Shown: piece after piece, positions 8,808-64,000 of the stretch
Layout of the letters: each line of letters begins with the position of its first letter
Position numbering within the stretch: position 1 is the stretch's first letter
NCBI GenBank assembly: GCA_965249275.1
Contig: CBDFLQ010000006.1
Location: 672,001-736,000, forward strand
Source of the DNA: Dehalococcoidia bacterium
Lineage (GTDB): Bacteria > Chloroflexota > Dehalococcoidia > Plut-88900
Direction: 5' to 3'
Length of the DNA stretch: 64,000 nt
The notes under the pieces: model-generated
Database searches by the model: none
What the model was told of the DNA's origin: nothing
The model's input: the letters and a program-made list of their open reading frames with translations, nothing else
Translations under genes and position numbers: made by a program

Positions 8808-8921
8808 GGTTTCCTCCAGGGTGATTCGATAGAGACGCGTGACATGGGGAGTTTATCAGAAGGTGGCCTGGCTGGGCGGGTGGTAGAATCCGAGAATACG
8901 TAGCTAGTTTGGGAGAGATAT

Positions 8922-11320: not shown

Positions 11321-11425
11321 GGTTCCCCCCTTGGACCGGCTGCCCTTTAACCCGTAACGCCTCCCATAGTATCATCGAATCCTCATTCATTCGACCAGCC
11401 AAGGAGCCTCGCCCTAATAGTCATT

Positions 11426-12721: not shown

Positions 12722-12889
12722 GGGGCATGGGTAAGCTTCAACCGGGGGATCGGGTTTGATTCAGGTATTCCCAGGGCCTACGTCAGAGATATCGGCGCCA
12801 GCGCTCTCGGGCATGGGGTCGGGTGGAGTAGGTAAAGTGGGATTCCTCGGCACTACGACAAGCCTGGGCACGCTCCCCGAATTCCCATT

Positions 12890-14185
12890 ATGAAACTGGA
12901 GATTGCTAACTTCCCAGTAGAGCGCATCATCCTAGGAGACGAGACCCGGTACACCGACGGCGACCTACGGGTCAGCCCAGAGGCCGTTCGCTCCCGGATG
13001 TTCGACGGAGAGTTCTTCGACGACATTTCAGTCCACGTATCCCATCCCGGAGACTCGACCCGCCTCATCCATATCGTGGATGTAGTGGAGCCTCGATACA
13101 AGCAGTCGGGACCCGGGTGCGTTTTCCCAGGCGTCCTTGGGCCTCCGGTGCAGGTTGGAACCGGAAGAACGGCCCGGCTCAACGGCATGGCCGTAGTATC
13201 TACGTCCGGACCCGCCGCCGGAGAGAGCCAATACTGGCGCGAGGCCATCCTCGACATGTCGGGGCCGGGGGCCCGGTATTCCCACTTCTCACAAACGGCC
13301 AACCTCGTCGTGGAGATGTCTCCCAAGGACCCGGGGCCCGAGACCCCGCCGGAAGACATCGAGACCCTGAACACGCTGCGGGGATCCGTTCACAGCCAGA
13401 GGATGAACGTGGCGCTGAGGAAAGCGCAAATAGCTCTCGCCTCGTATCTCGCCGAGACGGTCTCGGGCTTCTCGCCTGTCTCTGTAGATACATATGAGCT
13501 TACGGAAGTTGACTTCTCACTCCCGAAGGTAGTCTACGGTTGTCAGGTGGTGAGGGACCTGATCTACGGTATCCCCCCAGGATGGCAGCCGACCCTGCTT
13601 CACCCGAACGAGCTGATGGATGGCGCCGTCTTCCGTCTCTCCAATTACCTCGCCTCAGCTAGGACTACCATCTACGATCAGCAGAACCATCCCCTGGTAG
13701 AGGACCTGTATCAACGTCATGGCATTGACCTGAATTTCCTGGGTGTGCTCCTGATTCCGGCGGGAGACGAAAAGCTGAGCGAGAAAGAGCTTTCCGCGGG
13801 GTACGCAGCCAAGCTTCTCAGGATGTTAGGGGCGAACGGGATCGTCCTTTCTTGGATGGGTGGAGGTCACCTGGCTATCGATCCCATGCTCTTGATTAGG
13901 AACTGCGCAAGGGCCGGTATAGGCACTTCGCTGCTGAGCCCCGAGATGGCCCGCACTCCCGACGACACCGGTTTCGTCTATTTCGCCCCCGAGGCGGAGG
14001 CAATCGTGAGTACGGGCAACTTCGAAGAGCAAGTCGTTTTGCCGCGTGTCGACCGAGTCATAGGCGGGAAAGCGCTTCTCATGTCCGGTGACGACTCACA
14101 GGGGGAGCTAACCGTTCGCATCGGGCAGATTCTCGGGGCCACCCATACCCTCGGGAAGGGCAAATTGTCCGGGATTGCATATTAA
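12890..14185 (+). CDS. GrdE-like proprotein, copy 2 (tandem paralog)
   Basis: Same length (431 aa) and colinear with copy 1. Confidence 0.85.
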   Translation: MKLEIANFPVERIILGDETRYTDGDLRVSPEAVRSRMFDGEFFDDISVHVSHPGDSTRLIHIVDVVEPRYKQSGPGCVFPGVLGPPVQVGTGRTARLNGMAVVSTSGPAAGESQYWREAILDMSGPGARYSHFSQTANLVVEMSPKDPGPETPPEDIETLNTLRGSVHSQRMNVALRKAQIALASYLAETVSGFSPVSVDTYELTEVDFSLPKVVYGCQVVRDLIYGIPPGWQPTLLHPNELMDGAVFRLSNYLASARTTIYDQQNHPLVEDLYQRHGIDLNFLGVLLIPAGDEKLSEKELSAGYAAKLLRMLGANGIVLSWMGGGHLAIDPMLLIRNCARAGIGTSLLSPEMARTPDDTGFVYFAPEAEAIVSTGNFEEQVVLPRVDRVIGGKALLMSGDDSQGELTVRIGQILGATHTLGKGKLSGIAY

Positions 14186-16585: not shown

Positions 16586-17773
16586 ATGCGATTCGACAGC
16601 AACGTCTTCTACCACCCTCTGCAGGTCTACCCCGTGGACCGGATGCTGGACGAGTGGCGGCAGACTGTGAAGCTCTACGATCAGACCGGTTTCACCGGAG
16701 TTTGGATCGGGGAGCACCACTTCTGGCACTCGGGGTTCCACGTGGCTGCACCGAGCCCCGTGCAGGTATGCACCCACCTGGCCTCGATCACCGAGCGGCT
16801 GCGCGTCGCCCAGAGCGCCTGCATCCTCCCCGACTACCACCCCATCCGGCTGGCCGAGGAGCTGGCCATGCTCGACCAGATGACCAAGGGTCGGCTAGAC
16901 GTGGGCGTGGCACGGGGCACCAACAGCCCCGCCTGCATCCAGTTCAATATCGACGCCGACCGCCGCAACAAGGATCGCAACTACGCCCTGTTCAAGGAGA
17001 CCCTGGAAATCATGATCAAGGCGTGGACCGAAGACGCCCTGGTCCACGAAGGCGAGTTCTATACGTTCCCTGTGCCCGGCTGGACTGAGAAAGACCCTCG
17101 CATCTACACCGGCGACACTTCGCACTACGGCCCCAACGGGGAACTCATTGGGCTAGGGGTCGTGCCCAAGCCTTACCAGAAACCCCACCCCCCGATTTAC
17201 CAGGCAGCGGACTCCACCGAGTCCTATAGGTTCGCTGCTGAAAAGGGAATTTCGGTCACGGGATTCGGGCGCACTCTCGAGGGGTTGCGGGAGGCGTGGA
17301 CGGCCTACCGGGACACGGCGTCACGCGTGTCCGGTCGTGAGATACCGATGGGTGAGACAGCCAACGGCGACACCCTGAACATCATGAGGATGTTCTACAT
17401 GGCCGAGACCCAGGAACAGGCCGAACAGGAAGCCCGCGAGGGCATCAACGCCCACTACGAGATCACCTTCGGGCTGAGCCGGAACTGGGGGCGCACCGGG
17501 GCAATTGCCAAGGGCGAGGAGATCAGCGCCGAGCAGATGAACATGGACTGGTTCGACTTCGCCATGTCCAAAGATGTCATCCTCGTCGGCACACCCGAGA
17601 CCGTCGCCGAGAAAATTGAGAGGCTGCAAAACGAGCTTAACTGTAGGCACGTCACCCTCTGGCCCAACCCCTCCTTCCTCCCATTCGAAAAGGTGTACCA
17701 CAGCCTGGTGCTCTTCGCCGAGCGGGTAATCCCCTACTTTGAAAAGAAGCGGGCACCTGCCCCTGTGGGATAA
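16586..17773 (+). CDS. LLM-class flavin-dependent monooxygenase
   Basis: WIGEHHF, HPIRLAEELAMLD, GRLDVGVARG, PKPYQKPHPP motifs. Confidence 0.9.
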   Translation: MRFDSNVFYHPLQVYPVDRMLDEWRQTVKLYDQTGFTGVWIGEHHFWHSGFHVAAPSPVQVCTHLASITERLRVAQSACILPDYHPIRLAEELAMLDQMTKGRLDVGVARGTNSPACIQFNIDADRRNKDRNYALFKETLEIMIKAWTEDALVHEGEFYTFPVPGWTEKDPRIYTGDTSHYGPNGELIGLGVVPKPYQKPHPPIYQAADSTESYRFAAEKGISVTGFGRTLEGLREAWTAYRDTASRVSGREIPMGETANGDTLNIMRMFYMAETQEQAEQEAREGINAHYEITFGLSRNWGRTGAIAKGEEISAEQMNMDWFDFAMSKDVILVGTPETVAEKIERLQNELNCRHVTLWPNPSFLPFEKVYHSLVLFAERVIPYFEKKRAPAPVG

Positions 17774-17845
17774 ACCTGCAAATCAACACCGCCAAATATT
17801 TGTTAGAGACAACTTAGAAAATCTGGAAAAGGGAGACCAAAGTTC

Positions 17846-18844
17846 ATGGCTGACGATCGAGTCCTGATAGTAGACGGAGCACAGCACCACAAGTGGACCC
17901 AAGAGACCTTTGAGGACATCCGCCAAGGCGACATCAGCGCGGTCAACATCACGCTTGCCATCTGGGAAAACGCCCGCGAGACCCTCGCCGAGATCGGGCA
18001 ATGGTACCGCCGCTTCGACCAGTTCTCGGACCTCATAATGCCCGTCTACACCTCGGACGACATTAGGGCTGCCTATAAGGCCAAGAAAACCGGAATACTC
18101 TTCGGCTTTCAGAACACCTCTCCCCTCGAAGACAACATCGAGTTTGTAGCAGTCTTCGCCAAGCTCGGCGTCCGGGTTATGCAGCTCACCTATAACACTC
18201 AGAACCTGATCGGCTGCGGTTGCTACGAGCCCAACGACAGCGGTCTCACCTACTTCGGAGCGGACGTGATCGCCGAGATGAACCGGCACGGCGTCGTCAT
18301 TGACCTCTCCCACACCGGCGAACGGACTTCAATGGACGCCATCGAGGCCTCTACGCAGCCGGTGGCCATCACCCACGCCAACCCGACCTGGTGGAAGGAC
18401 GTCCAGCGCAACAAGTCGGATGACATGATGAGGGCCCTTGCTGAGAACGGCGGCGTGATGGGCCTGGGCACCTACCCAAACCTCTTCGCCCCCGATGGAA
18501 CCCTGGAGCAGTTCTGCGACATGGTCGCCCGCACCGTCGACTTCATGGGCATCGACCATGTGGGTCTCGGCAGCGACCACAACACAGGCTTCCTCCCCGA
18601 CGAAAAGCGCTACTGGGCCCGTGGCCGCTGGTCGCGGGAAGTGCCAAAGTTCATGAGCGCCAAGGGCTTCCACAGCCCCAAGTGGCCCCAGGTCGACTGG
18701 CCCGAATGGTGTGAGAAACCCTCGGGCATCGGGCTCATCCCCAATGGCCTCCGGGAGCACGGCTTCAACAATGAAGAGGTCTCCAAGATCATGGGCGGCA
18801 ACTACCTGCGGGTGTTCGACCAGGTATCCGCAGCCGCGAGCTAG
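17846..18844 (+). CDS. Membrane dipeptidase family (M19) amidohydrolase
   Basis: FGFQN, QLTYN, GCYE..DSGLT, IDLSH, THAN, HVGLGSD, MGGNYLRV motifs. Confidence 0.88.
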   Translation: MADDRVLIVDGAQHHKWTQETFEDIRQGDISAVNITLAIWENARETLAEIGQWYRRFDQFSDLIMPVYTSDDIRAAYKAKKTGILFGFQNTSPLEDNIEFVAVFAKLGVRVMQLTYNTQNLIGCGCYEPNDSGLTYFGADVIAEMNRHGVVIDLSHTGERTSMDAIEASTQPVAITHANPTWWKDVQRNKSDDMMRALAENGGVMGLGTYPNLFAPDGTLEQFCDMVARTVDFMGIDHVGLGSDHNTGFLPDEKRYWARGRWSREVPKFMSAKGFHSPKWPQVDWPEWCEKPSGIGLIPNGLREHGFNNEEVSKIMGGNYLRVFDQVSAAAS

Positions 18845-18991
18845 CGGTTTTCGGGTGACGGTAGGTCAGGTAGGGAACGTGCCTGTCCACCGCGACCGGC
18901 GGGACTTCGTCATCCAGCCCGGTGACTCCGGCAAGCCGGAGGACTATCCGGTGAACCCAGCTTATCGAAATTGACCTATCCAGGGGATGCT

Positions 18992-20041
18992 ATGGCTGAC
19001 AGTATTAGCTTGATGGCCCATTTAGTTCCACGACTAACTATACAAGTCGAGAATGCCGCTACCGACGCATTGGCCTATATCCTGAACAACTCCACCCAGT
19101 GTATGCAGGCGTTGAACGACCTGCTCCAAGAAGATGGCTTTGACATTAAGCCGGTTGCCAGGGTGGAAACCCAGGTAACCTACGAGGGTGGTTATCGGCC
19201 TGACATGGCAGGCTACGACAAGACCAATGTAGCACGCCTCCTTGTCGAGGCGAAGTTCTGGACCGCACTCGATGAAGGCCAAGCCAGCGGTTACGCCCAA
19301 CTGTTCGAACAACCCGGCCTGGCGGCACTCCTGTTCATCGGGCCCGAAATCAGAATTCCGACGCTGTGGGCTGAGATAGAGCGGCAGATGGCAAAGGAGA
19401 GCAGACTGGAACCCGTCGAATCACCTCCGGGAGTCCGGAGGGCCAGGGTGACTTGGACGGAACCGAGTGACACGGAACTACATTTAGTGCTGGTAAGCTG
19501 GGTCCGATTGCTTGACAGGATGGACGCTCTCGCTAACGGTGATGATGTCAAATCGGATATACGACAACTTCGAGGCCTCGCCCATGAGCAGGGCGATCAA
19601 CTCTTCCTGCCGATTCGTTCCGAAGAGCTGAGCCCCAGCCTTGCGCGCCGTGTAGTTTGGTACAGGCGGCTTGTCGACGATACCGTCGATGCCCGAGGTG
19701 TCTCAGAAGGCTGGATGGATATCAAAGGCCTACGTGCAACGGCGCAGTGGTTCGGGTACGGGCGGTGGATCCGCTTCTCCGGTGTGGAAAGTAATTTCTG
19801 GTTCGGAGTCAACCATGAACGGTGGGCTGGGAACGGGGACACTCCTCTATGGCTCTCCGTTTCTGACAGGAATCATGTGAGCATGGATGAGATCGGCAGG
19901 GAACTAGGGGTGCGAATTCACAACGAGTGGGTCCCAATCCATCTCAAAACGGGCGTAGAGTACGACAAGGTCCTGGATGATGTGGTATCGCAGCTGAAGA
20001 TGATAGCTAAGATTGCAGGGGTTCATCAAACCAGTGAGTAA
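18992..20041 (+). CDS. Putative PD-(D/E)XK nuclease-fold protein
   Basis: ENAATDALAYIL..ETQV..RPDMAG..LLVEAKFW (PD..ExK); codon usage looks AT-richer than neighbours. Confidence 0.65.
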   Translation: MADSISLMAHLVPRLTIQVENAATDALAYILNNSTQCMQALNDLLQEDGFDIKPVARVETQVTYEGGYRPDMAGYDKTNVARLLVEAKFWTALDEGQASGYAQLFEQPGLAALLFIGPEIRIPTLWAEIERQMAKESRLEPVESPPGVRRARVTWTEPSDTELHLVLVSWVRLLDRMDALANGDDVKSDIRQLRGLAHEQGDQLFLPIRSEELSPSLARRVVWYRRLVDDTVDARGVSEGWMDIKGLRATAQWFGYGRWIRFSGVESNFWFGVNHERWAGNGDTPLWLSVSDRNHVSMDEIGRELGVRIHNEWVPIHLKTGVEYDKVLDDVVSQLKMIAKIAGVHQTSE

Positions 20042-20109
20042 CCGCCTACCGGATCGGGCCCCGGAGATTAGGCCCGTATGACATCTCTCCGTGAAGGAAT
20101 CCCCATACC

Positions 20110-21285
20110 TTGAGGTTCGACGGCAACGTCTACTACCACCTTCTCGAGCGGTACCCGCCCGACCTGCTGATGGAGGAGTGGCGGGAAGAGGCCACTCTCT
20201 TCGACCAGGCGGGCTTCACAACGATATGGATCGGGGAACAGCACTTCTGGATTGCGGCCCCCAATCCCATCCTCATCAATACGCACCTGGCGACTCACAC
20301 CAGGCGGCTCAGGGTCGGGCAGAGCGCCTGCGTCCTCCCCGACTGGCATCCCATCCGCCTCGCCGAGGACCTTGCCCTCCTGGACAACATGACCCGCGGC
20401 AGGCTGGACGTCGGCATCGCCCGGGGCGTGAACACCTTGGCCGGGATCACCTTCAACGCCGACGCTGACCGCCGAGACCAGGCTCGGAACTACGCCCTGT
20501 TCAGCGAGACCCTGGACGTGCTAATCAAGGCCTGGACCGAGGTCGCTTTTGTTCATCAAGGCCGGTTCTACAACTTCCCTCCCTCGGGATGGAAAGAGCA
20601 AGGACCGCGTATATACTCGGACGATCCGGCGCACTACGCGCCGGATGGCGAGATTATCGCCCTCCCCGTGCGCCCGAAGCCCTACCAGAAGCCCCACCCT
20701 CCCATCTGGCAGGCCGCCGACTCCACCGCCTCCTATGCCTTCGCCGCAGAACGAGGCCACGCTACTACCTGTCTCAGCCGCTCCTTCGAAGGTGTCAGGG
20801 AAGCCTGGAACACCTACAAGGAAACAGCTTCCCGCGTCTGGGGTCGGGATGTACCCATGGGCCGAAGCGCCGACGGCAAGACCCTCAACGTCATGCGCAC
20901 CTGCTACGTCGCCGAGACCCAGGAGCAGGCAGAACGCGAGGCCCGAGAAGGAATCAATCGCTGGTACGACGTTACGGTCGGGCTGAACGCCAGCCGGGGG
21001 AAGCAGTCGTGTGTAGCATCCTGGGAGACCTTGCAGGACCGGGACCTCAACGCCGAGTGGTTCGATTTCCTTATGGAGAAAGAGATCATCTGGGTCGGGT
21101 CTCCTGAGTACGTAGCCGAGAGAATCGACCACCTCCGCACCGAGCTTAACTGCGCCCACGTCACCATCTGGCCCAATCCAGTGGGCCTGCCCTATAAAAA
21201 AGTGATGCACAGCCTGGAACTCTTCGCCGACCGGGTCATCCCGATGGTTGAGTCACAGGAGCCCGTGCCCACAACGTCACAATAG
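20110..21285 (+). CDS. LLM-class monooxygenase (close paralog of 16586..17773)
   Basis: TTG start; MRFDGNVYYH.., WIGEQHF, PKPYQKPHPP. Confidence 0.88.
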   Translation: MRFDGNVYYHLLERYPPDLLMEEWREEATLFDQAGFTTIWIGEQHFWIAAPNPILINTHLATHTRRLRVGQSACVLPDWHPIRLAEDLALLDNMTRGRLDVGIARGVNTLAGITFNADADRRDQARNYALFSETLDVLIKAWTEVAFVHQGRFYNFPPSGWKEQGPRIYSDDPAHYAPDGEIIALPVRPKPYQKPHPPIWQAADSTASYAFAAERGHATTCLSRSFEGVREAWNTYKETASRVWGRDVPMGRSADGKTLNVMRTCYVAETQEQAEREAREGINRWYDVTVGLNASRGKQSCVASWETLQDRDLNAEWFDFLMEKEIIWVGSPEYVAERIDHLRTELNCAHVTIWPNPVGLPYKKVMHSLELFADRVIPMVESQEPVPTTSQ

Positions 21286-46497: not shown

Positions 46498-46536
46498 CCG
46501 TTCGCACTGAGCAGAGTCGAAGGGTTAACCGAACGG
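46498..46536. repeat. REP family CCGYTCR..CTGAG..TCGAAG..GARCGG (other copies at 43114-43146, 50695-50729, 57304-57338)
   Basis: Four similar imperfect palindromes, all intergenic. Confidence 0.8.
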
Positions 46537-50598: not shown

Positions 50599-50756
50599 CC
50601 CTCTCCCTCGTCGAGAGTTGTGCATTACCGTCATTCCTGCGGAGGCAGGAATCCAGGGGTAATGTGGGATAGGGTTCGATCCTCAGGGGCCGGGCCGCTC
50701 ATCCTGAGGTGACTCGAAGGGTCGAGCGGGGGGAGGCCACGCCCTGCAAATCCGTC
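50599..50756. repeat. Composite REP/MITE remnant
   Basis: CCCTCTCCC half-site, degenerate TIR GAGAGTTGTGCATTAC, GTCATTCCTGCGGAGGCAGGAATCCA hairpin, and the CCGCTCATCCTGAG..GAGCGG REP. Confidence 0.6.
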
Positions 50757-53302: not shown

Positions 53303-54613
53303 TTACTGGTACACAGCGTTCCATTCCGCCTGCAATCTGTCGGAGTTTTCACCTGCCCACCTCTCGTTTAGAAAGATGGCGTAGTCAAGGGTATCGGCTG
53401 TGAGAGGTAGCGAGTCTCTGACAGCGTCGTAGGCAGAGTCCTCTGCAATTACCTGCGCCCCCTTTAGGTTTACGGGACCATAGGTAATGCCCAGGCTCAC
53501 TGCAGCGTTTATCTCAGGGAAGGACGACCATGCGGCCCATAAGTTAGCCAGTAGATACGCATTGGGATTCGATTCCTTAAGCCCTGCAGGCATGCCGAAC
53601 ATATCGGTGCTAACTATGTATCCGGCCTCCCAATCCAACGCAAGGGGAGCGTCGTCCTGCCTTACCGCGTCGTAGATCCGGCCATTCCCACAAACCCCCA
53701 TAACTATGTCACGGGAAATGAGAAGCTCAGGACACTGGACACCGAATTCGGTAAAAATTACACCGCCCTTGGGGTCTTCGCTTAGCTCCCTCCATTTATC
53801 GAAGGAACGGTCGATCTCCTCTTGGGTGAAAGGTCCCCCCAAGAAGGTTCGCCCTTCTTCGGTTTCCAGGAGGCTGGGATCATCCGCCAATAGGCCGATG
53901 GTAGGATTATGAGGCCACCAGGAATTAGTGGCACGTCGTCCAGGGAATTTCTCGGTGTCAAAGAAGTCGGCCCAGGAGTCGGGTTGCTCGGTGCCCTCAG
54001 GATATTCATCGGTGTTGTAGCCGAGGACGTATGTCCAGGAGCTACCCCCTCCGGCGCCGTGTGGGAAGTTTTCCTGAACTGAAGGGAGCAAGTCAGGGAA
54101 GGTCCCACCTACTATGGCCATGTCAAAAGGCTCCAGGTCCCCGGTTATGATAAAAGACCTGATGTCCTGGCTGCCCAGATCGACTATGTGCCATTCAGGG
54201 TCCTCTATGTTAGCCATGGCACGGAACTTGCTATACACTACCGGGCTGTCCTCAATTATTACAATGCCGAACTTCTCTTCGAAAGGTGTAAGGAGAGCTG
54301 CCCGCTGGGCATTCTCGTAGGCGCCGCCCCACGAAACCCAAGTGAAGCTCTCGCCTCTGTGCTTCTCCAACTCCGCCTCTAGCTCTTCAAGGGTCGCCGG
54401 CTCCTCCGGCGTCCACTCCTCTATAGGTCTAATTTGTGGCTCCGGGGTGGGAGTAACCTGGGCTGCCAGAGTTGCCGTTGCCGGTGCGGGAGTATCATCG
54501 CCTCCGCAGGCGGCTGCCACCATTGCAATAGATATCAGGAGCCCCAAGATTCCTAGCACAACTATGTGCCGCTTAGATAGCCCTTTTCCGCGTATTCCAC
54601 GTAGCCTACTCAT
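53303..54613 (-). CDS. ABC transporter substrate-binding lipoprotein (PotD/PotF-like)
   Basis: Lipobox AAAC; VSWGGAYENAQ, WADFFDTEKFPGRR, NGRI, YGPVN motifs. Confidence 0.85.
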   Translation of the reverse strand: MSRLRGIRGKGLSKRHIVVLGILGLLISIAMVAAACGGDDTPAPATATLAAQVTPTPEPQIRPIEEWTPEEPATLEELEAELEKHRGESFTWVSWGGAYENAQRAALLTPFEEKFGIVIIEDSPVVYSKFRAMANIEDPEWHIVDLGSQDIRSFIITGDLEPFDMAIVGGTFPDLLPSVQENFPHGAGGGSSWTYVLGYNTDEYPEGTEQPDSWADFFDTEKFPGRRATNSWWPHNPTIGLLADDPSLLETEEGRTFLGGPFTQEEIDRSFDKWRELSEDPKGGVIFTEFGVQCPELLISRDIVMGVCGNGRIYDAVRQDDAPLALDWEAGYIVSTDMFGMPAGLKESNPNAYLLANLWAAWSSFPEINAAVSLGITYGPVNLKGAQVIAEDSAYDAVRDSLPLTADTLDYAIFLNERWAGENSDRLQAEWNAVYQ

Positions 54614-55295
54614 CTGCCTCCTCCCGAAACTTAGCTTCCCTCGTGGGATAGCATCACATACCTATTAGCTCGCTTTGGGACTCCTTCTCACTAGTGTGAT
54701 ATATTTAGCAATATTCAACGTTCGTTCAATCACAAAAACTGGGACAACTCTTGTCAACTGTTTCCCACTTCCACCCGAATCGGCCTCCTGGAGGATTCAA
54801 CACGCTTAGTAGAAATTCGTGCCGGGGATAAAATAGCGTCAGGAATGGGTTGTTACCGGGATGCCGACGGGGGGGTTAGAAAGCCCACACCCTCCAATAT
54901 ACAGTAGAGTAATTCTCACTGATCCACTCTCAGGGGCAGCGTAGGAAGAAAGGAATAGACACCGGGTCTGCCTAAGAAGTTCATAGACTCCTTTATAGCG
55001 ACGTTTCCGCTACCCGCTTTAAATACATCGTACATGCGAATGGGAGTTACGTCAAGAAGTGAGGATTGTTTCACTATGTATTAAAGCCATGAGAATCTAC
55101 TTGCCAGAAGAGATTTTGATCATCCTTTCCGTGGTTGAATCATGCAGCCTTACAGGTCCAGAAGGCCTTTAGAACGGCTGCCAACACTTCTCGCAACAAT
55201 ACCCCACCCCCCGCTTGGTAACGATATATCAATAAAACAGGGCGGGTGGGCGGGACTCCACTTAATCCCGGGAGTAGGGACGCCACCCCTCCCCC

Positions 55296-55320
55296 GTAGG
55301 GGTGGTTCGCGAACCGCTCT
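55296..55320. repeat. GTAG-type REP (RAYT-associated class)
   Basis: GTAGGGGTGGTTCGCGAACCGCTCT. Confidence 0.65.
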
Positions 55321-55389
55321 GACCTCTGAGTAACCCCACCTCCGTCTCCGCCGCATCGAGCCATGTGCAACAAAAGTGACACGAACCCC

Positions 55390-55419
55390 TTGACCCAATG
55401 CGTACGCCTGTACTATATT
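55390..55419 (+). promoter_or_regulatory. sigma70 promoter with LexA-box-like operator (element 1)
   Basis: TTGACC-caatgc-GTAC-gcct-GTAC-TATATT. Confidence 0.6.
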
Positions 55420-55424
55420 CACCC

Positions 55425-56040
55425 CCGACTAGCTCGTCACACACCTAAACCCTAAGGAGGAACCACAACCCAGGGGGAAGCCCAGCCCCGGCCCCGAGGA
55501 CTCAACGTCTAAGCCCATCCCAAAGGGCGGCCCACACGCCGCCCCTCGGCTCAAGCGAACGCCGCCATCTCCTCATACCAAAGGCCCCGGCTATCCCTTC
55601 CCCCACCCAGGCGATGGAAGGCCCACAGACTATCCTCGGCAGGCCCCGTCCAACGACGCCCCTGCCGATTCAACGCCCCTCATCATCGGGTGCGTTTACC
55701 CCGGCCCATTGCGCGCCGGTTTCCCGGGTAGGTCAACCGACCCCCGGTTTAGCAAGGCCCTCGTGTCCTTGTTTGTCCCGCCGTCCCTGCCATCCGTCTA
55801 CCCGGCGGATGCACCGGGACGCCGGTTCCGAAAGACCGCCTCAGGCGGCATCTTCCACGTCAGCGGTCCGGTCATGTGCCGCTCACGAATTGGGATCTGC
55901 CCCACACAACCCTGACCACAGCCGGCAACATGTGGGGATAATCCAGCCCGGCGCCGACGGCTCGGCAGCAACCCCCGGCCTGGTTTCTAGTCACGGACCT
56001 TCCATCGCCTGCCCCTCCACCAAAGCAAACCGAAACCCCC
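55425..56040 (+). ncRNA. Candidate large structured ncRNA, copy 1 (unclassified)
   Basis: Scaffold 55453-55620 shared with copy 2; 14-bp long-range stem 55608-55621/55998-56011; 3' motif GCAAACCGAAACCCC at 56025-56039. Confidence 0.6.
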
Positions 56041-56102
56041 GGACGACAACCAAATATCGCCCCTCACCCCATGTATAATCCCCTGGCAGGAGGACACCCG
56101 AC

Positions 56103-57212
56103 ATGCGAGAACACCCCCTAGTTGACGTCGACAGCCACGTCCTTGAGCCCATGTCCGTCTGGCAGGACTACCTGGAACCCGACCTCAGGCCCCGTGCCAT
56201 CCGCTGGTCCACCGACGACAACGGGCGCGAGCTAATGCTGATCGACGGCAAGCCCGCGCGCCAGTTCATGCTCCGCAACGGCTGGATGGGCAGCCCCAAG
56301 GTCCCCGGAGGCCGCGCCTTCGAAGACCGGGTGACCACATCCCTCGGCGCAGCCAACGGCGCAGACCGCGTCCAACTGCTCGACAACGAAGGCATCGACA
56401 TCACCCTCCTCTACCCCACCCTCGGCATCCAGTGGGAGCCCGAGTTCGATGACTACAATCTCGCCGCCGCCCACGCCCGAGCCTACAACTCCTGGATCAC
56501 CGACCTCTGTAAACCCCATTCAGACCGCCTGGTTCCCGTAGCCCACGTAGTCGCCTCGGACGTCCAGGAGGGAGCGGCGGAGCTGGAGCGGGCCGCGGGG
56601 CTTGGGGCCCGGGGCGGCATGGTCAGCGGCAGACCCATTAACGGCATCCCCTACGGAGACCCATACTATGACCCCCTCTGGGCGCAGGCCCAGGAGTCCC
56701 GCATACCCCTCGCCCTGCACGTCATGGGCTACCCCAAGCACCTCGGCTACGACATGTACCCCGACACCAGCCCTAAGATCGCCTGGTGGGGCTTCGTCAC
56801 CCTCGGCCTGGAGGTCATCATCGGCCTGACCACCCTCTTCCAGGGCGCCGTCTTCGAACGGTTCCCGGACCTGCGCATCGTCGTCCTGGAGGCGGGGTCG
56901 GGGTGGCTGCCCTACTGGCTCGACAGGATGGACGAATACACGGAGCTCTTCACCTACGCCACGTCGCTATCGATGAAGCCGACCGAATACTTCAAACGAC
57001 AGTGCTGGATCTCCTTCGAACCCAGCGAGGAGATGATGCCCGAGACCATGGATTTCATAGGCGTCGACAAATTCATGTGGGCCGCCGACTACCCCCACAC
57101 CGACTCCGTCGCCGACCCAGTCCGTCTCCTAACAAAAATGCTCGCGCCCCTCTCCCAGGAAGACCGCTGGAAAGTCCTCGGCGACACCGCCGTCGAACTC
57201 TATGGCCTTTAA
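56103..57212 (+). CDS. Amidohydrolase family 2 (paralog of 51960..53099)
   Basis: VDVDSHVLEP, LYPTLG, LEAGSGW, WAADYPHTD; own TATAAT and AGGAGG upstream. Confidence 0.9.
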   Translation: MREHPLVDVDSHVLEPMSVWQDYLEPDLRPRAIRWSTDDNGRELMLIDGKPARQFMLRNGWMGSPKVPGGRAFEDRVTTSLGAANGADRVQLLDNEGIDITLLYPTLGIQWEPEFDDYNLAAAHARAYNSWITDLCKPHSDRLVPVAHVVASDVQEGAAELERAAGLGARGGMVSGRPINGIPYGDPYYDPLWAQAQESRIPLALHVMGYPKHLGYDMYPDTSPKIAWWGFVTLGLEVIIGLTTLFQGAVFERFPDLRIVVLEAGSGWLPYWLDRMDEYTELFTYATSLSMKPTEYFKRQCWISFEPSEEMMPETMDFIGVDKFMWAADYPHTDSVADPVRLLTKMLAPLSQEDRWKVLGDTAVELYGL

Positions 57213-57231: not shown

Positions 57232-57384
57232 GAGACCTTTCTATGAATCGGGATTCATTGCGCCGGGGAACTATATTGCCCTTGCATTGGGGGCGGGGGG
57301 AATCCGCTCATCCTGAGCAGGGTCGAAGGGTCGAGCGGATTCCGGGAGGAGTCCCAGATAGTAGGCAGGTTGTGCAAAGATCCC
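57232..57384. mobile_element. Degenerate MITE of the same family as 43076-43207
   Basis: GAGACCTTT.. and GTTGTGCAAAGATCCC ends; TCGAC/TCGAT flanks within a CTCTCCC/GGAGA REP; internal REP. Confidence 0.6.
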
Positions 57385-60498: not shown

Positions 60499-60670
60499 TG
60501 GGGCCACCTCCCTGGGCATCCGTTGGGAATTCCGACGCCGCCTATCCTATCGCCCACCCGTTCCCGGTGTCAATCTGATGTACTCGTCCGGTAGGTCAGT
60601 GACACACTGGCCTTTTATTCAGTCCTCCAGAGGCGGATCCGCCCAAGGCGGATGTTCCATCTTCGATTGT

Positions 60671-61295
60671 GGGGTTTCGGTTTGCGTTCTGTCTGTTGGG
60701 TTTTGGGGTGGCGATGAAAGACGCTTGCTGGATTCGGCTCCCTATCTTTAGATAATGCGGGCTAGGAGGCGTCCCGGGAACGTGGGGACGGGGCTCCGCC
60801 GCCGCCTAGACCTGGAAGTATGGTCGGACGTACGGGTCCGTCATCCGTCATAGGCTCCAATGAAGGTTGGCTGCGCTGTCCGCCGCAGGCGGGTGCAGGA
60901 AGGGGAAAGTCCAGGGTCAGTTCCCCTCGCAGGAGTACGGGGTATCCGGTTCGCCGCCTGTATCCAGGAGCCGGGAGTGGCGGACAGTCCAGTTTTATTT
61001 GAGGAAGCGGACGGAGAGCCGAGCGGTCCTCGGCTACGGGCTGCCCCGTTCCGCTCCATAGGACAAGGTTGCTCCGTGAGGAGACTTTTAAGTACGGTCC
61101 AGGGCGTCTTCCATCGCCTGATGGTCAGGGAAGGGATAGCCGGGGCCCTTGGTAGAGGAGATGGCGGCGTTCGCTTGTGCCGTGGGGCGGCATGTGGGCC
61201 GCCCTTTGGGATGGGCTTGGACGTTGAGTCCTCGGGGGCCGGGTGGGCTTCCCTAGTGTTTGGTTCCTCCTTAAGGTGGGTGTCGGGTCTAGACT
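60671..61295 (-). ncRNA. Candidate large structured ncRNA, copy 2 (unclassified)
   Basis: Scaffold 61273-61108 shared with copy 1; 15-bp long-range stem 61118-61104/60724-60710 with one G-U pair; 3' motif at 60685-60671. Confidence 0.6.
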
Positions 61296-61301
61296 GGTCC
61301 A

Positions 61302-61330
61302 ATAATAGAACACATGTCTTATGAAGTCAA
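61302..61330 (-). promoter_or_regulatory. sigma70 promoter with LexA-box-like operator (element 2)
   Basis: TTGACT-tcata-AGAC-atgt-GTTC-TATTAT (17-nt spacer). Confidence 0.65.
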
Positions 61331-61380
61331 GGGGTGGATGTCACACTTTTGGGGGGGCACCGCCCCGGCCCTTCCGGGGA

Positions 61381-61578
61381 ACCCTCACCCCCTTGGTCCC
61401 CCTCTCCCTTAGGGCCTTCAAGGGAGAGGGGGAAAGAAGAATAGAGGCCCGCATACGTGCTAGGCACGTATGCGGGCCTCTAATTCAGTACTGGGGGGAG
61501 GGGGAGGAAAAAACAGAGGCAGAGGCTGGCACTTCTGCGCCCACGTATGCCTCTAATTCAGTACTGAGGGGAGGGGGT
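61381..61578. repeat. REP cluster with perfect 19-bp inverted repeat and ~28-bp direct repeat
   Basis: CCCCCTCTCCCTT..AAGGGAGAGGGGG; TAGAGGCCCGCATACGTGC-TAG-GCACGTATGCGGGCCTCTA (61442-61482); GCCTCTAATTCAGTACTGrGGGGAGGGGG twice. Confidence 0.7.
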
Positions 61579-61661
61579 GATGTCACCCCTTTATGTGAAC
61601 GTGATCAGCTACTATCCTCACCATGACACCGTCATATGTGTCACCCATATTTGTGAATGAC

Positions 61662-61723: not shown

Positions 61724-64000
61724 ATGCCTCACGTCCTGCGAGTGTCCTACACGTTTGGAATCTTCGCCATCATCGGGATTGCCCTGTTCTTTGCAGTCGG
61801 AGTCTTTGCCGACGACCATAATTCCGTGGACCTATCCCCTTCCGTTTTATGGGAGGGAGAGGAGATCACTCAGCCGGTTGTCGGAGAGTTCCTAACCGCT
61901 GCCCTGGTTGCCGATGACCCGACCGGCATGTCCTGGCAGTGGGCCCGCTCCCAAGATGGAGAGAGCGGCTGGGAGGACATTGAGGCTGCAACCTCCACGA
62001 AGTACATCCCCACCGGGGATGACGTAGGGCGCTACCTCCGGGCAGCCGTCTCATATACCGATGGAGACGGCAACACGCAGAGTGCAGAGGCAATCACCAC
62101 CGATCAGGTGGAGCAAGAGAGGAGTGGTGTCCGCTGCCCATGGTGCGAACCTGGGCCGATATGGACGGCGACACCCGTGCCCACCAATACACCCGTGCCC
62201 ACCAATACACCCGTGCCCACCAATACACCCGTGCCCACCAATACACCCGTGCCCACCAATACACCCGTGCCCACCAATACACCTGTGCCCACCAATACAC
62301 CCGTGCCGACCAATACGCCCGTCCCGACCAATACACCCAGACCCGTCATCCCCACACCCACTCCCCTCAGCAAACCCCCACCCCCAACAGGGGTTCACGC
62401 AGAGGCACAGAGCTATACGTCAATTCTCATCTCTTGGAACAGGGACAGCAGGGGCGGAGTACAGAGTTATGACGTAGACTATGATGACTCCAGCGAGCCC
62501 CGGGACCACCACGGTGGTGGCCCCAACACCTTCAACCTGGTCTCCGGCCTCCGGATTTGCACTCTGTACACATTCACCGTTCAGGCCTTTGGTGACGGGA
62601 CTACCTACGCCGCTCGATGGAGCGACCCGTCCCACCCAGTAGAAGAGTGGACTCTCTGTCCTACCCCCACTCCGACCTCTACCCCTACCCCTACCCCCAC
62701 TCCGACCCCTACCCCTACCCCTACCCCTACCCCTACTCCCACCCCTACCCCTACTCCCACCCCTACCCCTACCCCTACTCCTACGGCCAGGCCTTGTCTG
62801 GTGGACTGCGAGCCACTACATATATGCAATACGAAGGCCGTTATCCCTGGATTTTCCAACAAACCTCACCTTGTGGCAGACTGTGTTGTCCTAAAAAGCA
62901 TCATAGACACCCTGAGGGGTGATGCGGGCGATGCATTGAATTGGAATGGCGAAACACTGTTGCGTGAATGGGAAGGACTCGGCTTTAGCCCCAAAACTGA
63001 CGAGCAGACCAACACGACCTATGATCGTGTTACAGCGTTGTACTTGAACGATAAGAACTTTAGCGGGACAATCCCTGCAAGGCTCGGCTATTTGTCTGCA
63101 CTCAATATCCTGTTTCTAAATGACAATGCTTTAACAGGATTTCTCACAGAATTAATAGTCGGAGATGAAATAGTGACCATTAACCTTGCTAACAATTCGT
63201 TGGAAGGACAAATCCCATCCGAATGGGGATATCGGGACAAACTCCAATCTCTTATCCTCAATGACAATATATTGGATGGAGGAATTCCGAGTTCACTGGC
63301 TAACCTCGAAAATCTTGATTTCCTATATCTCCAAAACAATGAATTAGAAGGTCCAATACCAAGTGCAATAGGAGACATGCCTTCTCTTAGCAGATGGTAT
63401 CTTGCGGGCAATAACCTCAGTCCTTGCTTACCTACATCACTGCTCAACATCGAAGAGAATGACTTTACTTTTCTTGGGCTCATTATCTGCCTTCCGACTC
63501 CTAAGAGAGAAGTACTTTGTCCATTAGCTGGAAGGATTGATCCTTCTGATTATGATGACAACAGCACTATTGTTAATATCGGGCCTGGCTCGTATCAAGT
63601 GCATAGATCGTCCACGTATATGTTCTTTCCTTTACCTGACCTCGGAGGTTCAGAACTTGGCCTGTCTGGGCTAGCTGCTTGTGGTAATAGCGCCGTTGCC
63701 ACTGCATCGGTCACGACTGTCAACACTAGTTTGTATGGCGCTGTTTACCATGGATACAATTCCGGTAGAACTGGATCTTTAGGACACTCCACACCGATTT
63801 TGGGACAAATGTGTACGAATAGTCGGACCTGTCTGTGGCAAAGTGGGTTTCTATTCGCAGGACAGGGTTGGGGTAACCAATTTCAAGTGTACGGTACGCA
63901 CCGTATATCTAGCAGCGGTGGGACTATAAACACATACCGGACAACTGGAGGATATAGTGTCGACGACGTAAGATTTGCTCAACCACCTCCCCATCCTCCG
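61724..64000 (+). CDS. Large secreted/surface protein: signal peptide, Ig-like domain, (TPVPTN)9, FN3, (PT)n, plant-type LRRs (partial, at least 759 aa; not in ORF track)
   Basis: Open from ATG 61724 to the window end: MPHVLRVSYTFGIFAIIG.., SWQWARS..YLRAAVSYTDG, SILISW..VSGLRICTLYTFTVQA..WSDPS, LYLNDKNFSGTIPARLGYLSAL..LYLQNNELEGPIPSAIGDM. Confidence 0.88.
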   Translation, partial: MPHVLRVSYTFGIFAIIGIALFFAVGVFADDHNSVDLSPSVLWEGEEITQPVVGEFLTAALVADDPTGMSWQWARSQDGESGWEDIEAATSTKYIPTGDDVGRYLRAAVSYTDGDGNTQSAEAITTDQVEQERSGVRCPWCEPGPIWTATPVPTNTPVPTNTPVPTNTPVPTNTPVPTNTPVPTNTPVPTNTPVPTNTPVPTNTPRPVIPTPTPLSKPPPPTGVHAEAQSYTSILISWNRDSRGGVQSYDVDYDDSSEPRDHHGGGPNTFNLVSGLRICTLYTFTVQAFGDGTTYAARWSDPSHPVEEWTLCPTPTPTSTPTPTPTPTPTPTPTPTPTPTPTPTPTPTPTPTPTARPCLVDCEPLHICNTKAVIPGFSNKPHLVADCVVLKSIIDTLRGDAGDALNWNGETLLREWEGLGFSPKTDEQTNTTYDRVTALYLNDKNFSGTIPARLGYLSALNILFLNDNALTGFLTELIVGDEIVTINLANNSLEGQIPSEWGYRDKLQSLILNDNILDGGIPSSLANLENLDFLYLQNNELEGPIPSAIGDMPSLSRWYLAGNNLSPCLPTSLLNIEENDFTFLGLIICLPTPKREVLCPLAGRIDPSDYDDNSTIVNIGPGSYQVHRSSTYMFFPLPDLGGSELGLSGLAACGNSAVATASVTTVNTSLYGAVYHGYNSGRTGSLGHSTPILGQMCTNSRTCLWQSGFLFAGQGWGNQFQVYGTHRISSSGGTINTYRTTGGYSVDDVRFAQPPPHPP
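62171..62332 (+). repeat. 18-bp coding tandem repeat x9 (TPVPTN)
   Basis: ACACCCGTGCCCACCAAT units. Confidence 0.95.
62660..62782 (+). repeat. 6-bp coding tandem repeat (Pro-Thr)n
   Basis: CCTACC/CCCACT units. Confidence 0.9.

What the first reader, a model, noticed from the sequence alone, without database searches (positions are those of the whole stretch)
55608..56011. Length-conserved but sequence-unrelated cargo domain closed by a covarying long-range stem
Seen: in copy 1, CAGGCGATGGAAGG pairs with CCTTCCATCGCCTG across 376 nt. In copy 2, GGCGATGGAAGACGC pairs with GCGTCTTTCATCGCC across 379 nt (60725-61103), so both arms changed together. The interiors do not align by eye, yet each is packed with stems (copy 1: TCGGCAGG/CCTGCCGA, GTCCCG/CGGGAC, CCCCACA/TGTGGGG; copy 2: CTGTCCGCC/GGCGGACAG, CAGGCGG/CCGCCTG, AGGGGAA/TTCCCCT). 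Inference: selection on size and structure rather than sequence, as for an excised or circularised domain, a retron-like a1/a2-bounded template, or a decoy or guide payload.
Basis: partly seen in the sequence, partly recalled or inferred. Interest (0 to 1): 0.78.

Follow-up and report, generated by a model that had tools for sequence, protein, structure and literature searches.

The report
Promoter-seeking mobile repeat carrying structured RNA
The two stems are real, but they belong to a mobile repeat found about 55 times in this sponge-associated Dehalococcoidia genome; it lands right beside gene promoters and carries its own promoter and a folded non-coding RNA, whose middle part varies widely in length.

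Summary
Both long-range stems exist exactly as described. They are one conserved helix, with core GGCGATGGAAG/CTTCCATCGCC, present in all 55 copies of a repeat in this 2.9-Mb genome. The repeat occurs in every genome searched of the same genus and in no other genome searched.

The length match (376 vs 379 nt) is a coincidence of the two commonest subfamilies. Across 125 copies the interior runs from 198 to 709 nt and falls into about 15 sequence types, some weakly and collinearly related.

The unit is a non-autonomous transposon of 738-870 bp. It has imperfect terminal inverted repeats, TG..CA ends and a 5-6-bp target duplication. Filled and empty sites exist between species. Its 3' end abuts a -35-like TTGAC hexamer of a host promoter, in the promoter's orientation.

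Inside lie a near-consensus sigma-70 promoter, an invariant AAGGAGG with no start codon, a conserved 5' domain, the closing helix, the variable domain and a C/A-rich tail. There is no conserved ORF, no Rfam match, and no reverse transcriptase in the genome. Paired columns are conserved more than unpaired ones, and sponge metatranscriptome contigs cover the unit.

The retron, circle and cargo readings have no support. What the RNA does is unknown.

The parts
55390..55419 (+). Copy 1: internal sigma-70-type promoter, TTGACC-18-TATATT
   Evidence: It matches 10 of 12 consensus positions. The equivalent promoter scores at least 9 of 12 in 53 of 55 own copies.
55453..55460 (+). Copy 1: TAAGGAGG, a Shine-Dalgarno-like motif about 27 nt after the predicted RNA start, with no start codon behind it
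   Evidence: Read directly from the sequence. AAGGAGG is present in 54 of 55 own copies and is nearly invariant in 83 aligned copies.
55461..55607 (+). Copy 1: conserved 5' domain, with motifs GAGGACTCAACG, AGCCCATCC, CAAGCGAA and CCATCTCCTC, plus a hairpin whose stem sequence differs between copies
   Evidence: Alignment of 83 copies; hairpin variants; profile R1.
55608..55621 (+). Copy 1: 5' arm of the domain-closing helix
55622..55997 (+). Copy 1: variable central domain, 376 nt. Its type has n=22 copies of 351-378 nt.
55998..56011 (+). Copy 1: 3' arm of the closing helix
56012..56048 (+). Copy 1: C/A-rich 3' tail. This copy has lost both transposon termini.
   Evidence: Tail alignment. No left-end or right-end motif was found for this copy.
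61581..61607 (-). Copy 2: left terminus of the transposon (TGATCACGTTCACATAAAGGGGTGACA)
61352..61573 (-). Copy 2: about 220-bp foreign repeat nested between the left terminus and the element's own -35. The borders are approximate.
   Evidence: Compared with uninterrupted copies. It contains direct repeats at 61476-61504 and 61549-61577 and a 19-bp hairpin followed by a T run.
61302..61330 (-). Copy 2: internal promoter, TTGACT-17-TATTAT
   Evidence: It matches 10 of 12 consensus positions.
61266..61272 (-). Copy 2: AAGGAGG
   Evidence: Read directly from the sequence.
61104..61118 (-). Copy 2: 5' arm of the closing helix
60725..61103 (-). Copy 2: variable central domain, 379 nt. Its type has n=23 copies of 376-520 nt, median 387.
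60710..60724 (-). Copy 2: 3' arm of the closing helix, with one G.U pair
60606..60709 (-). Copy 2: C/A-rich tail and 3' extension, including a small hairpin repeat
60579..60605 (-). Copy 2: right terminus of the transposon (…GTCACTGACCTACCGGACGAGTACA)
60544..60573 (-). Host promoter, TTGACA-18-TAGGAT. It starts 5 nt after the element's last base and precedes the ChsH2-like and thiolase-like genes.

Best explanation
The region is one copy of a non-autonomous DNA transposon: a large MITE, or a 'mobile insertion cassette'. It is probably derived from an IS481-type element.

Shown:
- Complete copies run from (T)GATCCCGTTC... to ...CGAACGAGTACA and are 738-870 bp long.
- They have imperfect bipartite inverted termini and a 5-6-bp target duplication.
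- They are present at some sites in one species and absent at the same sites in another.
- The 3' end lies so that the duplication abuts a -35-like TTGAC hexamer of a host promoter, with the element pointing the same way as that promoter.
- Each copy carries a near-consensus promoter just inside its left end.
- The transcribed part has a fixed plan: AAGGAGG without a start codon, a conserved ~150-nt 5' domain, an 11-bp helix extended by 3-5 subfamily-specific pairs, a variable domain, and a C/A-rich tail.
- The reported stem is that helix. The 'cargo' is the fast-evolving, subfamily-specific middle domain.

Inferred:
- The transposase comes in trans from a resident IS481-like element or a lost relative.
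- It recognises TTGACA-like DNA because the inner part of its own termini is (G/T)TGACA.
- The transcript is a long-lived folded RNA, with AAGGAGG acting like a STAB-SD 5' stabiliser.
- No terminator follows on the sense strand, so transcription probably runs on into the host promoter and gene. The unit would then act as a mobile promoter-plus-leader cassette.

My rough odds for the role of the RNA are: cis leader or promoter donor 45%, stand-alone RNA acting in trans 35%, no function 20%.
For: Copy number and range:
- The 5' module gave 55 hits in the own genome.
- Core-helix pairing out of 11 is 11 in 33 copies, 10 in 21 and 9 in 1.
- By blastn, 8 of 8 congeners are positive and 0 of 32 other genomes.
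- With profile R1, 5 of 151 class genomes match, all in this genus.

Mobility:
- Two precise filled-versus-empty junctions were found.
- Of 28 loci in congeners whose flanks map to this genome, 9 have no co-oriented element here.
- In 16 of 23 unique pairs of termini, at least 5 of 6 flanking bases are duplicated, against 95 of 2000 mismatched control pairs.
- The left and right termini align with 20 identities, and 0 of 500 shuffles score as high.

Target site:
- TTG sits at offset 6 after the 3' end in 30 of 45 unique flanks, and at most 2 of 45 at any other offset from 0 to 29.
- 25 of those 30 have TAnnnT 16-18 nt further on.
- The -35-like hexamer is already present in both empty sites.
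- The downstream ORF is co-directional in 40 of 54 copies, binomial p 5e-4, using crude ORF calls.

Source element:
- The resident 1056-bp IS has TGTA..TACA ends and a 5-bp duplication.
- Its transposase is closest to the IS481 family at 189.7 bits, below the 224-bit cut-off.
- Its terminus matches the element's right terminus at 23 positions, with 0 of 500 shuffles as high.

RNA:
- Both window copies have promoters matching 10 of 12 consensus positions.
- Contigs of 4 of 4 sponge RNA runs, from 2 studies, cover 55467-56033 and bridge the 5' arm.
- There is no conserved ORF and no Rfam hit even at E<=10.
- In the copy-1 type, 98.5% of cells are paired.
- With the structure taken from copy 1 alone, 62% of paired columns are invariant in the other 21 copies against 39% of unpaired columns (p 1e-5), and 93.4% of cells stay paired.
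- Helix mismatches are G.U 49 against A.C 17, after setting aside 32 A.C cells at core position 10, which I read as a 1-nt register shift in one subfamily.
- An RNase J family gene is present.
- No sense-strand terminator-like site lies between the RNA and the host promoter or gene.
Against: Covariation:
- Covariation within a type is thin. Only 3 of 104 pairs change on both sides, and 64 pairs never vary.
- RNAalifold on the 83-copy 5'-domain alignment found only 15 pairs, one of them compensatory. That MAFFT alignment is poor in the hairpin region.
- High similarity among copies could reflect recent spread or gene conversion rather than selection.

RNA evidence:
- The RNA evidence comes from contigs only, so it gives no strand, no ends and no levels, and DNA carry-over is not excluded.
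- Nothing covers 55386-55466 or 56034-56114.

Termini and source:
- The left terminus is not significantly like the IS terminus (192 and 70 of 500 shuffles score as high).
- That IS inserts into a different target, GTCATTCC.
- No autonomous element with the same termini was found.
- Copy 1 has no termini. Copy 2's flanks match at only 3 of 6 positions.
- 15 of 45 3' flanks lack TTG at offset 6.

Other:
- Only two clean empty sites were examined.
- Read-through into host genes and the STAB-SD role are untested.
- No Rho gene was found, so the C/A-rich tail is unexplained.
Confidence: 0.68

Rival explanations
1. A host-domesticated, multi-copy family of ~0.6-kb structured RNAs that act in trans, for example by binding or titrating a protein or 30S subunits. 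On this view the transposon features are only the vehicle that spread the gene.
For: - 28 of 55 own copies have lost both recognisable termini. Of these, 27 keep AAGGAGG, 26 keep a promoter scoring at least 9 of 12, and 27 keep at least 10 of 11 helix pairs.
- At 15 of 19 shared orthologous loci the interior type is the same across species.
- There is structural constraint.
- The 5' domain is conserved across all congeners, down to about 75% identity.
- Contigs of the 5' domain have higher word depth than those of the flanking gene, which is weak evidence.
Against: - No target or partner was found. The interiors of the two window types match nothing else in the genome.
- About 15 different middle domains are hard to fit to a single trans function.
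- Copies without termini may simply be young decay products.
- Contig depth cannot rank expression.
Confidence: 0.3
2. A purely selfish MITE. The stems and conservation are by-products of recent amplification, and the RNA has no role. Any effect is limited to its promoter acting on neighbouring genes, as in Correia elements.
For: - The unit has termini, target duplications and presence/absence differences between species.
- Copies of one type are 83-93% alike.
- Most stem pairs never vary.
- Sigma-70 promoters in MITEs are well known (PMC10969869, passages read).
Against: - Substitutions avoid paired columns. Minor-allele cells per column are 0.85 in paired against 1.74 in unpaired columns, using a structure taken from one copy only.
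- The helix and 5' domain persist in species where the termini have diverged beyond recognition.
- AAGGAGG and the helix are kept in decayed copies.
Confidence: 0.25
3. One reading: a retron-like template bounded by a1/a2 repeats, an excised or circularised domain, or a guide or decoy payload.
For: - A long-range helix brackets a structured variable region.
- The variable region differs between copies.
Against: - No RVT_1, Y1 transposase or TnpB zinc-ribbon match was found in the genome, which is 87% complete.
- Interior length varies from 198 to 709 nt.
- There are no joints in RNA contigs, and contigs run across the 5' arm.
- There is no similarity to phages, plasmids, viral contigs or other parts of the genome.
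Confidence: 0.03
4. A protein-coding gene. The 154-aa ORF at 55614-56078 starts at the ATG inside the helix.
For: An ORF of 154 aa exists in copy 1.
Against: - From the same ATG the ORF length is 4-184 aa among the 20 of 22 copies of this type in which a stop codon was met, and no stop was met in the other 2.
- In four other types the ORF is 4-91 aa.
- In copy 2 the ORF is 8 aa.
Confidence: 0.01

Closest known systems
Correia elements (CREE) of Neisseria and other promoter-bearing MITEs (MITEAba12, BrickBuilt, QMITE1, SonMITE_1)
   Same: - Non-autonomous, bounded by TIRs and target duplications, and present in many copies.
- Mostly located just upstream of genes.
- Carry sigma-70-type promoters that can drive neighbouring genes.
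- Their transcripts fold stably.
(Review PMC10969869, passages read.)
   Different: - This element is about 5 times longer, at 738-870 bp.
- Its stable helix is internal, not formed by the termini.
- It carries a conserved ~150-nt RNA domain plus a swappable middle domain.
- Insertion is orientation-specific and abuts the -35 hexamer. I found no such rule in the passages I read.
QMITE1/QMITE2 of Coxiella burnetii, which give rise to the sRNAs Cbsr3, Cbsr13 and Cbsr16
   Same: A MITE family from which small RNAs are transcribed, and their function is unknown (PMC10969869).
   Different: - Those sRNAs are small and incidental to some copies.
- Here every copy has a dedicated promoter and a ~0.6-kb RNA with a conserved plan.
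Mobile insertion cassettes (MICs): TIR-bounded units without a transposase that carry passenger genes
   Same: Size range, lack of a transposase, and a passenger transcription unit between inverted termini.
   Different: The passenger here is a non-coding RNA gene, not a protein gene.
IS481 family insertion sequences
   Same: - TG..CA-type termini and a 5-6-bp target duplication.
- A resident IS481-like element, which I took as 12 copies from the rve matches with a 329-aa open frame, has a terminus that matches the element's right terminus at 23 positions.
   Different: - This element has no transposase inside it.
- Its left terminus is not similar to the IS terminus.
- The resident IS targets GTCATTCC, not promoters.
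- The typical TSD range of the IS481 family is recalled from memory.
STAB-SD 5' stabiliser of Bacillus mRNAs (Agaisse & Lereclus 1996; seen only as reference 106 in PMC3997798)
   Same: A perfect Shine-Dalgarno sequence near the 5' end of an RNA with no start codon behind it. An RNase J family gene is present in this genome.
   Different: The role is not tested here. The match is by analogy only.
Retron msr-msd RNA
   Same: Inverted repeats bracket a structured region.
   Different: - There is no reverse transcriptase in the genome.
- The genome holds 55 copies.
- The unit is bounded by transposon termini and duplications.
Large structured bacterial RNAs in Rfam, such as GOLLD, ROOL, OLE and HEARO (family names recalled from memory)
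   Same: Several hundred nucleotides, many helices, and unknown function.
   Different: - No Rfam family matches, even at E<=10.
- This RNA is carried by a mobile element and occurs in dozens of copies in each genome searched of one genus.

Membership tests
MITE / non-autonomous DDE transposon | Terminal inverted repeats | tested here: met
   The left and right termini align with 20 identities, and 0 of 500 shuffles score as high. The shared bipartite motif is CxCGTTC, then 9-10 nt, then GTGACA.
MITE / non-autonomous DDE transposon | Target-site duplication | tested here: met
   16 of 23 unique terminus pairs match at 5 or more of 6 flanking bases, 8 of them perfectly. The control gave 95 of 2000.
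MITE / non-autonomous DDE transposon | Presence/absence at orthologous sites | tested here: met
   Two precise junctions were found. 9 of 28 mapped loci have no element in this genome.
MITE / non-autonomous DDE transposon | No transposase gene inside | tested here: met
   There is no conserved ORF. The only rve gene seen inside a copy belongs to a separate nested IS with its own termini.
MITE / non-autonomous DDE transposon | Small size (usually under about 0.5 kb; recalled) | tested here: not met
   Complete copies are 738-870 bp. The unit is therefore better described as a large MITE or a mobile insertion cassette.
IS481-family derivative | Termini matching those of an autonomous IS481-family element that could act in trans | tested here: inconclusive
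   The right terminus resembles the terminus of the resident IS481-like element (23 identities, 0 of 500 shuffles as high). The left terminus does not (192 and 70 of 500). The transposase scores 189.7 bits against a 224-bit cut-off.
Retron | Adjacent reverse transcriptase | tested here: not met
   There is no RVT_1 match anywhere in the genome, which is 87% complete.
Retron | msDNA / branched RNA-DNA product | not testable with these tools
   This needs wet-lab detection.
Any Rfam family | Covariance-model match | tested here: not met
   There were 0 matches at gathering score over the whole window and 0 at E<=10 over 55200-56200.
Riboswitch / gene-specific leader | Constant association with one gene family or pathway | tested here: not met
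   Downstream genes differ. They include Amidohydro_2, ChsH2-like plus thiolase-like, and what I read by eye as tRNA genes in other copies.
IS200/IS605 (PATE) or TnpB omega-RNA element | Y1 transposase or TnpB in the genome | tested here: not met
   There are no Y1_Tnp and no TnpB zinc-ribbon matches.
Protein-coding gene | ORF kept across copies | tested here: not met
   From the shared ATG the ORF is 4-184 aa within one type, counting the 20 of 22 copies in which a stop was met, and 4-91 aa in four other types.

The most novel reading that the evidence does not exclude
This is a promoter-homing transposon family whose own conserved RNA is a working part of the element. The RNA comprises the 5' domain, the closing helix and an exchangeable middle domain. 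It might tether the transposition machinery to RNA polymerase or to sigma-70-bound -35 DNA, or it might control the trans-acting transposase. The subfamily-specific middle domains would then be functional variants. That would be an RNA-assisted DDE transposon with a new target-selection rule: orientation-specific insertion abutting -35 hexamers.
Probability: 0.15. Interest if true: 0.85.

Novelty: new variant of a known kind. Interest (0 to 1): 0.6.

Why it matters
- It explains a repeat that I estimate makes up about 1% of this genome (55 copies of roughly 0.7 kb). The repeat occurs in dozens of copies in every genome searched of the genus, and gene callers and Rfam leave it blank.
- If the target rule holds, it is unusually precise for a bacterial transposon: same orientation as the host promoter, with the duplication abutting the -35 hexamer. 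It suggests a way in which a DDE transposase reads promoter-like DNA.
- The copies act as natural markers of promoters in uncultivated sponge-associated Dehalococcoidia.
- The ~0.6-kb RNA is a new structured RNA family with a conserved scaffold and exchangeable middle domain, and it appears in sponge metatranscriptome contigs.
- If each copy adds a second strong promoter and a stabilised leader to the gene it lands beside, the family could rewire the expression of dozens of genes at once.

Tried and rejected
- Rfam: nothing was found at the gathering score, and nothing at E<=10.
- Retron, group II, DGR, IS200/605 and TnpB readings: no RVT_1, Y1_Tnp or TnpB zinc-ribbon match was found in the genome.
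- Coding reading: rejected.
- Rho-dependent stop at the C/A-rich tail: the only match to the Rho family scored 27.7 bits against a cut-off of 509, so I dropped the idea. The genome is 87% complete.
- Interiors as captured host, phage or plasmid sequence: there was no match in phages or plasmids, none in viral contigs, and none elsewhere in the genome for the two window types. Some other types hold small nested repeats or hit further partial copies.
- Search for an autonomous element with the same termini: among pairs of termini in 9 genomes of the genus, only one was longer than about 1.2 kb, in G002. It turned out to hold a different, nested rve IS with its own termini.
- RNAalifold on the 83-copy 5'-domain alignment gave a poor consensus of 15 pairs. 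Mononucleotide shuffles of the short G+C-rich hairpin segments were uninformative: only 26 of 72 distinct segments beat 95 of 100 shuffles.
- RNA contigs left 55386-55466 and 56034-56114 uncovered in all four runs, and no joints were listed. Because these are contigs that break at repeat borders, I draw no conclusion about RNA ends, read-through or circles.
- A blastn look for the element upstream of the orthologous amidohydrolase gene gave mixed results. G003, G002 and G001 carry an element with another interior. G005 and G008 gave no clear match.
- Literature: three searches found no description of this element or of -35-abutting insertion. I read only listings and abstracts, plus passages of PMC10969869 and one reference entry in PMC3997798. 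Supplements were not available.
Full report
**Observation.**
- In copy 1 (+ strand), CAGGCGATGGAAGG at 55608 pairs with its complement at 55998 across 376 nt.
- In copy 2 (- strand), GGCGATGGAAGACGC at 61118-61104 pairs with GCGTCTTTCATCGCC at 60724-60710 across 379 nt, with one G.U pair.
- MFE folds of both whole units keep this helix. The z-scores are -4.8 and -3.6, and 0 of 20 shuffles folded as well in each case.
- A pairwise alignment shows conserved flanks and an interior with no clear similarity.

**A repeat family, not two copies.**
- The 5' flank of the helix occurs 55 times in the window's own genome, which has 2.9 Mb, 7 contigs and 59% G+C.
- In all 55 copies a partner for the 11-nt core GGCGATGGAAG lies downstream. 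The pairs formed out of 11 are 11 in 33 copies, 10 in 21 and 9 in 1.
- By blastn the family is in 8 of 8 other genomes of the same genus, each with dozens of hits. It is in 0 of 3 genomes of other genera of the family and 0 of 29 further genomes of the class.
- A sequence profile of the 5' domain (R1, built from 83 copies) found it in 5 of 151 genomes of the class. All five belong to this genus, and the other 146 had no match.
- A conserved 25-nt motif hit 79 stretches in 6 public records, all titled 'MAG: Dehalococcoidia bacterium'.
- The motif hit 6 contigs of one metagenome project and no viral contig.
- Runs labelled sponge metagenome are among those that hold the stretch.

**Length and relatedness of the interior.**
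- In the own genome the distance between the core arms is 288-520 nt.
- I collected 152 profile hits. Of these, 141 had the motif and a partner, 138 were unique, and 125 had at least 10 of 11 core pairs. In those 125 the interior is 198-709 nt.
- They fall into 15 blastn types. The two largest are the window's own types: copy-2 type (n=23, 376-520 nt, median 387) and copy-1 type (n=22, 351-378 nt, median 375). The near-equal lengths are therefore a coincidence of the two commonest subfamilies.
- Types are not wholly unrelated. Weak collinear matches link the own-genome types into two groups.
- The two groups differ in the inner extension of the helix: GUCC/GGAC in one and ACGC/GCGU in the other. 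A third form, AGCC/GGCU, also occurs.
- Some length variation comes from small nested repeats.

**The unit is a transposon.**
- Comparing loci of congeners with this genome gave two precise filled/empty pairs.
- The inserted block starts (T)GATC(C/T)CGTTCA... and ends ...CGAACGAGT(A/G)CA.
- The empty site holds one copy of a short sequence that flanks the block on both sides.
- In 23 unique pairs of termini from this genome and congeners, 16 have at least 5 of 6 flanking bases duplicated and 8 are perfect. Mismatched control pairs reached this in 95 of 2000 cases. Most such units are 738-870 bp.
- The two termini are imperfect inverted repeats with 20 identities, and 0 of 500 shuffles score as high.
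- Of 28 loci in congeners whose outer flanks map here, 15 carry the same interior type in this genome, 4 carry a different type, and 9 have no co-oriented element.
- Copy 2 is a full unit at 61607-60579 on the - strand. A foreign repeat of about 220 bp is nested between its left terminus and its promoter. Its flanks match at only 3 of 6 positions.
- Copy 1 has lost both termini.

**Target site.**
- I examined 45 unique 3' ends.
- The base after ...GAGTAC is A in 40 of them.
- Five variable bases follow, and then T (40), T (37), G (39), A (31), C (32).
- TTG stands at offset 6 in 30 of 45. At every other offset from 0 to 29 it stands in at most 2.
- 25 of those 30 have TAnnnT 16-18 nt after the hexamer.
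- In both empty sites the TTGA(C/G) hexamer is already there.
- For copy 2 the scan tool finds the host promoter TTGACA-18-TAGGAT at 60573-60544, directly after the element.
- The nearest long downstream ORF is co-directional in 40 of 54 copies, binomial p 5e-4. These are crude ORF calls, and one copy at a contig edge was left out.
- Two other elements sit at the same kind of place, just upstream of the element's own -35. One is an rve IS in G002. The other is the nested repeat in copy 2.

**Possible source.**
- The genome gave 22 rve-domain matches, which I grouped into three IS families.
- One family is a 1056-bp IS with a 320-aa transposase. I took it as 12 copies, from the matches with a 329-aa open frame.
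- Its transposase is closest to the IS481 family, at 189.7 bits with E 7.8e-56. This is below the 224-bit cut-off.
- It has TGTA..TACA ends and a 5-bp ATTCC duplication.
- Its terminus contains TTGACA and matches the element's right terminus at 23 positions (0 of 500 shuffles as high). It does not match the left terminus.
- It inserts into a different sequence, GTCATTCC.
- The link to this IS is therefore plausible but not shown.

**The transcription unit.**
- Just inside the left end lies a promoter: TTGACC-18-TATATT at 55390-55419 and TTGACT-17-TATTAT at 61330-61302. Both match 10 of 12 consensus positions.
- 53 of 55 own copies score at least 9 of 12.
- About 27 nt after the predicted start comes AAGGAGG, present in 54 of 55 copies, with no start codon behind it.
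- Next comes a 5' domain with invariant blocks, and a hairpin whose stem has at least five different self-complementary sequences.
- The closing helix, the variable domain and a C/A-rich tail follow.
- The ORF from the ATG inside the helix is not kept.
- Rfam gives nothing.
- Contigs of 4 of 4 sponge RNA runs, from 2 studies, cover 55467-56033. Several run across the 5' arm, for example a 505-nt contig over 55543-56009. None cover 55386-55466 or 56034-56114.
- Because these are contigs, they show presence only. They give no strand, ends or levels.

**Structural constraint.**
- I aligned 22 copies of the copy-1 type and applied the RNAalifold structure.
- 98.5% of cells form standard pairs, against 29-42% when partners are slid by 1-3 columns.
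- 3 of 104 pairs change on both sides. Only 2 of 500 shuffles reach that number.
- The covariation score is 0.033 against a shuffled mean of 0.028, and 0 of 500 shuffles reach it.
- 64 of the 104 pairs never vary, so the direct covariation evidence is thin.
- Substitutions avoid paired columns. 74% of paired columns are invariant against 35% of unpaired columns.
- To avoid circularity I repeated this with a structure predicted from copy 1 alone and counted on the other 21 copies. The figures are 62% against 39% (p 1e-5), and 93.4% of cells stay paired.
- In the closing helix of 138 copies, mismatches are G.U 49 and A.C 49. Of the A.C cells, 32 come from a 1-nt register shift in one subfamily. 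That leaves 17, a bias towards the sense strand.
- Copies that have lost both termini keep the promoter, AAGGAGG and the helix.

**How it most likely works.**

*Shown:* the anatomy, mobility between species, the target position and orientation, promoter-like signals, the absence of coding capacity, and conservation of pairing.

*Inferred:*
- A trans-acting IS481-type transposase binds the bipartite termini. Because the inner part of those termini resembles TTGACA, it captures -35 hexamers as targets. The element therefore ends up 5 bp upstream of host promoters, pointing the same way.
- The internal promoter makes a folded RNA. An RNase J family gene is present, so the 5' AAGGAGG may protect the RNA in the way described for STAB-SD. 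I saw that work only as a reference entry.
- No terminator-like site follows on the sense strand, and no Rho gene was found. Transcription may therefore continue into the host promoter and gene, making the unit a mobile promoter-plus-leader cassette.
- The closing helix would keep the variable middle domain folded on itself, so that it can diverge without disturbing the conserved scaffold.
- A stand-alone trans-acting RNA, or no RNA function at all, remain live alternatives.

**Comparison and novelty.**
- Promoter-bearing MITEs (Correia and others) and MITE-derived sRNAs (Coxiella QMITE) are known (PMC10969869, passages read).
- This family differs in four ways. It is larger. Its stable helix is internal rather than terminal. 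Its RNA has a conserved scaffold with exchangeable middle domains. Its insertion rule, if it holds, is precise and orientation-specific, with the target duplication abutting the -35 hexamer.
- Three literature searches turned up no description of it. I read listings and abstracts only, and could not see supplements.
- I class it as a new variant of a known kind.

Noticed in passing
G000:C6:928757-928830 (own genome, outside the window): A lone left terminus of the element (TGATCCCGTTCACATAGAGGGGTGACATCAACCCC) is fused directly to the -35 of a promoter. A CIRCE-like inverted repeat (TTAGCACTC-N9-GAGTGCTAA) and genes I read by eye as groES-groEL follow it. It may be a remnant left by deletion between the element's -35 and the host's -35.
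   Followed up: partly
window 61352-61573 (- strand): A repeat of about 220 bp is nested between copy 2's left terminus and its promoter. It has direct repeats at 61476-61504 and 61549-61577 and a 19-bp hairpin plus T run at 61482-61442. Related G-rich hairpin repeats (GGGAGAGGG...) precede the promoters of many other copies.
   Followed up: partly
L132:545-1860 (G002:C1, outside the window): An IS with a 423-aa rve-domain transposase is inserted exactly between the left terminus and the -35 of an element copy. This is the same kind of site that the element itself uses in host promoters.
   Followed up: partly
L142:206-1261 and further copies in G000 (outside the window): A 1056-bp IS481-like IS with TGTA..TACA ends is always inserted in GTCATTCC|G of a REP-like repeat, with a 5-bp ATTCC duplication. 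Several copies lie within 1 kb of element copies.
   Followed up: partly
window 60606-60660 (- strand), and the copies at G000:C7:805028, C6:148348 and C6:42196: A small hairpin repeat (about ATCGAAGATGGAACATCCGCC...GGAGGA) lies in the 3' extension of many copies. In three copies it also occurs as an insertion inside the 5' domain.
   Followed up: no
window 62135-62374 and 62630-62809: There are tandem 18-nt and 12-nt repeats, encoding Pro/Thr-rich repeats, inside the long ORF that starts at 61724.
   Followed up: no
window 46498-46532, 50695-50729, 57304-57338: A 35-nt REP-like repeat (CCGCTCATCCTGAG...GTCGAAGGGTCGAGCGG) occurs three times in the window. Similar sequence lies in the filler upstream of some element copies.
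   Followed up: no
window 7446-8860, 11377-13140, 16772-21242: There are pairs of 70-74% identical direct repeats of 190-300 nt, spaced 745-3509 nt apart. They look like tandem paralogous genes.
   Followed up: no
window 53303-54613 (- strand): A 436-aa ORF upstream of copy 1 has no Pfam match at E<=0.001.
   Followed up: no
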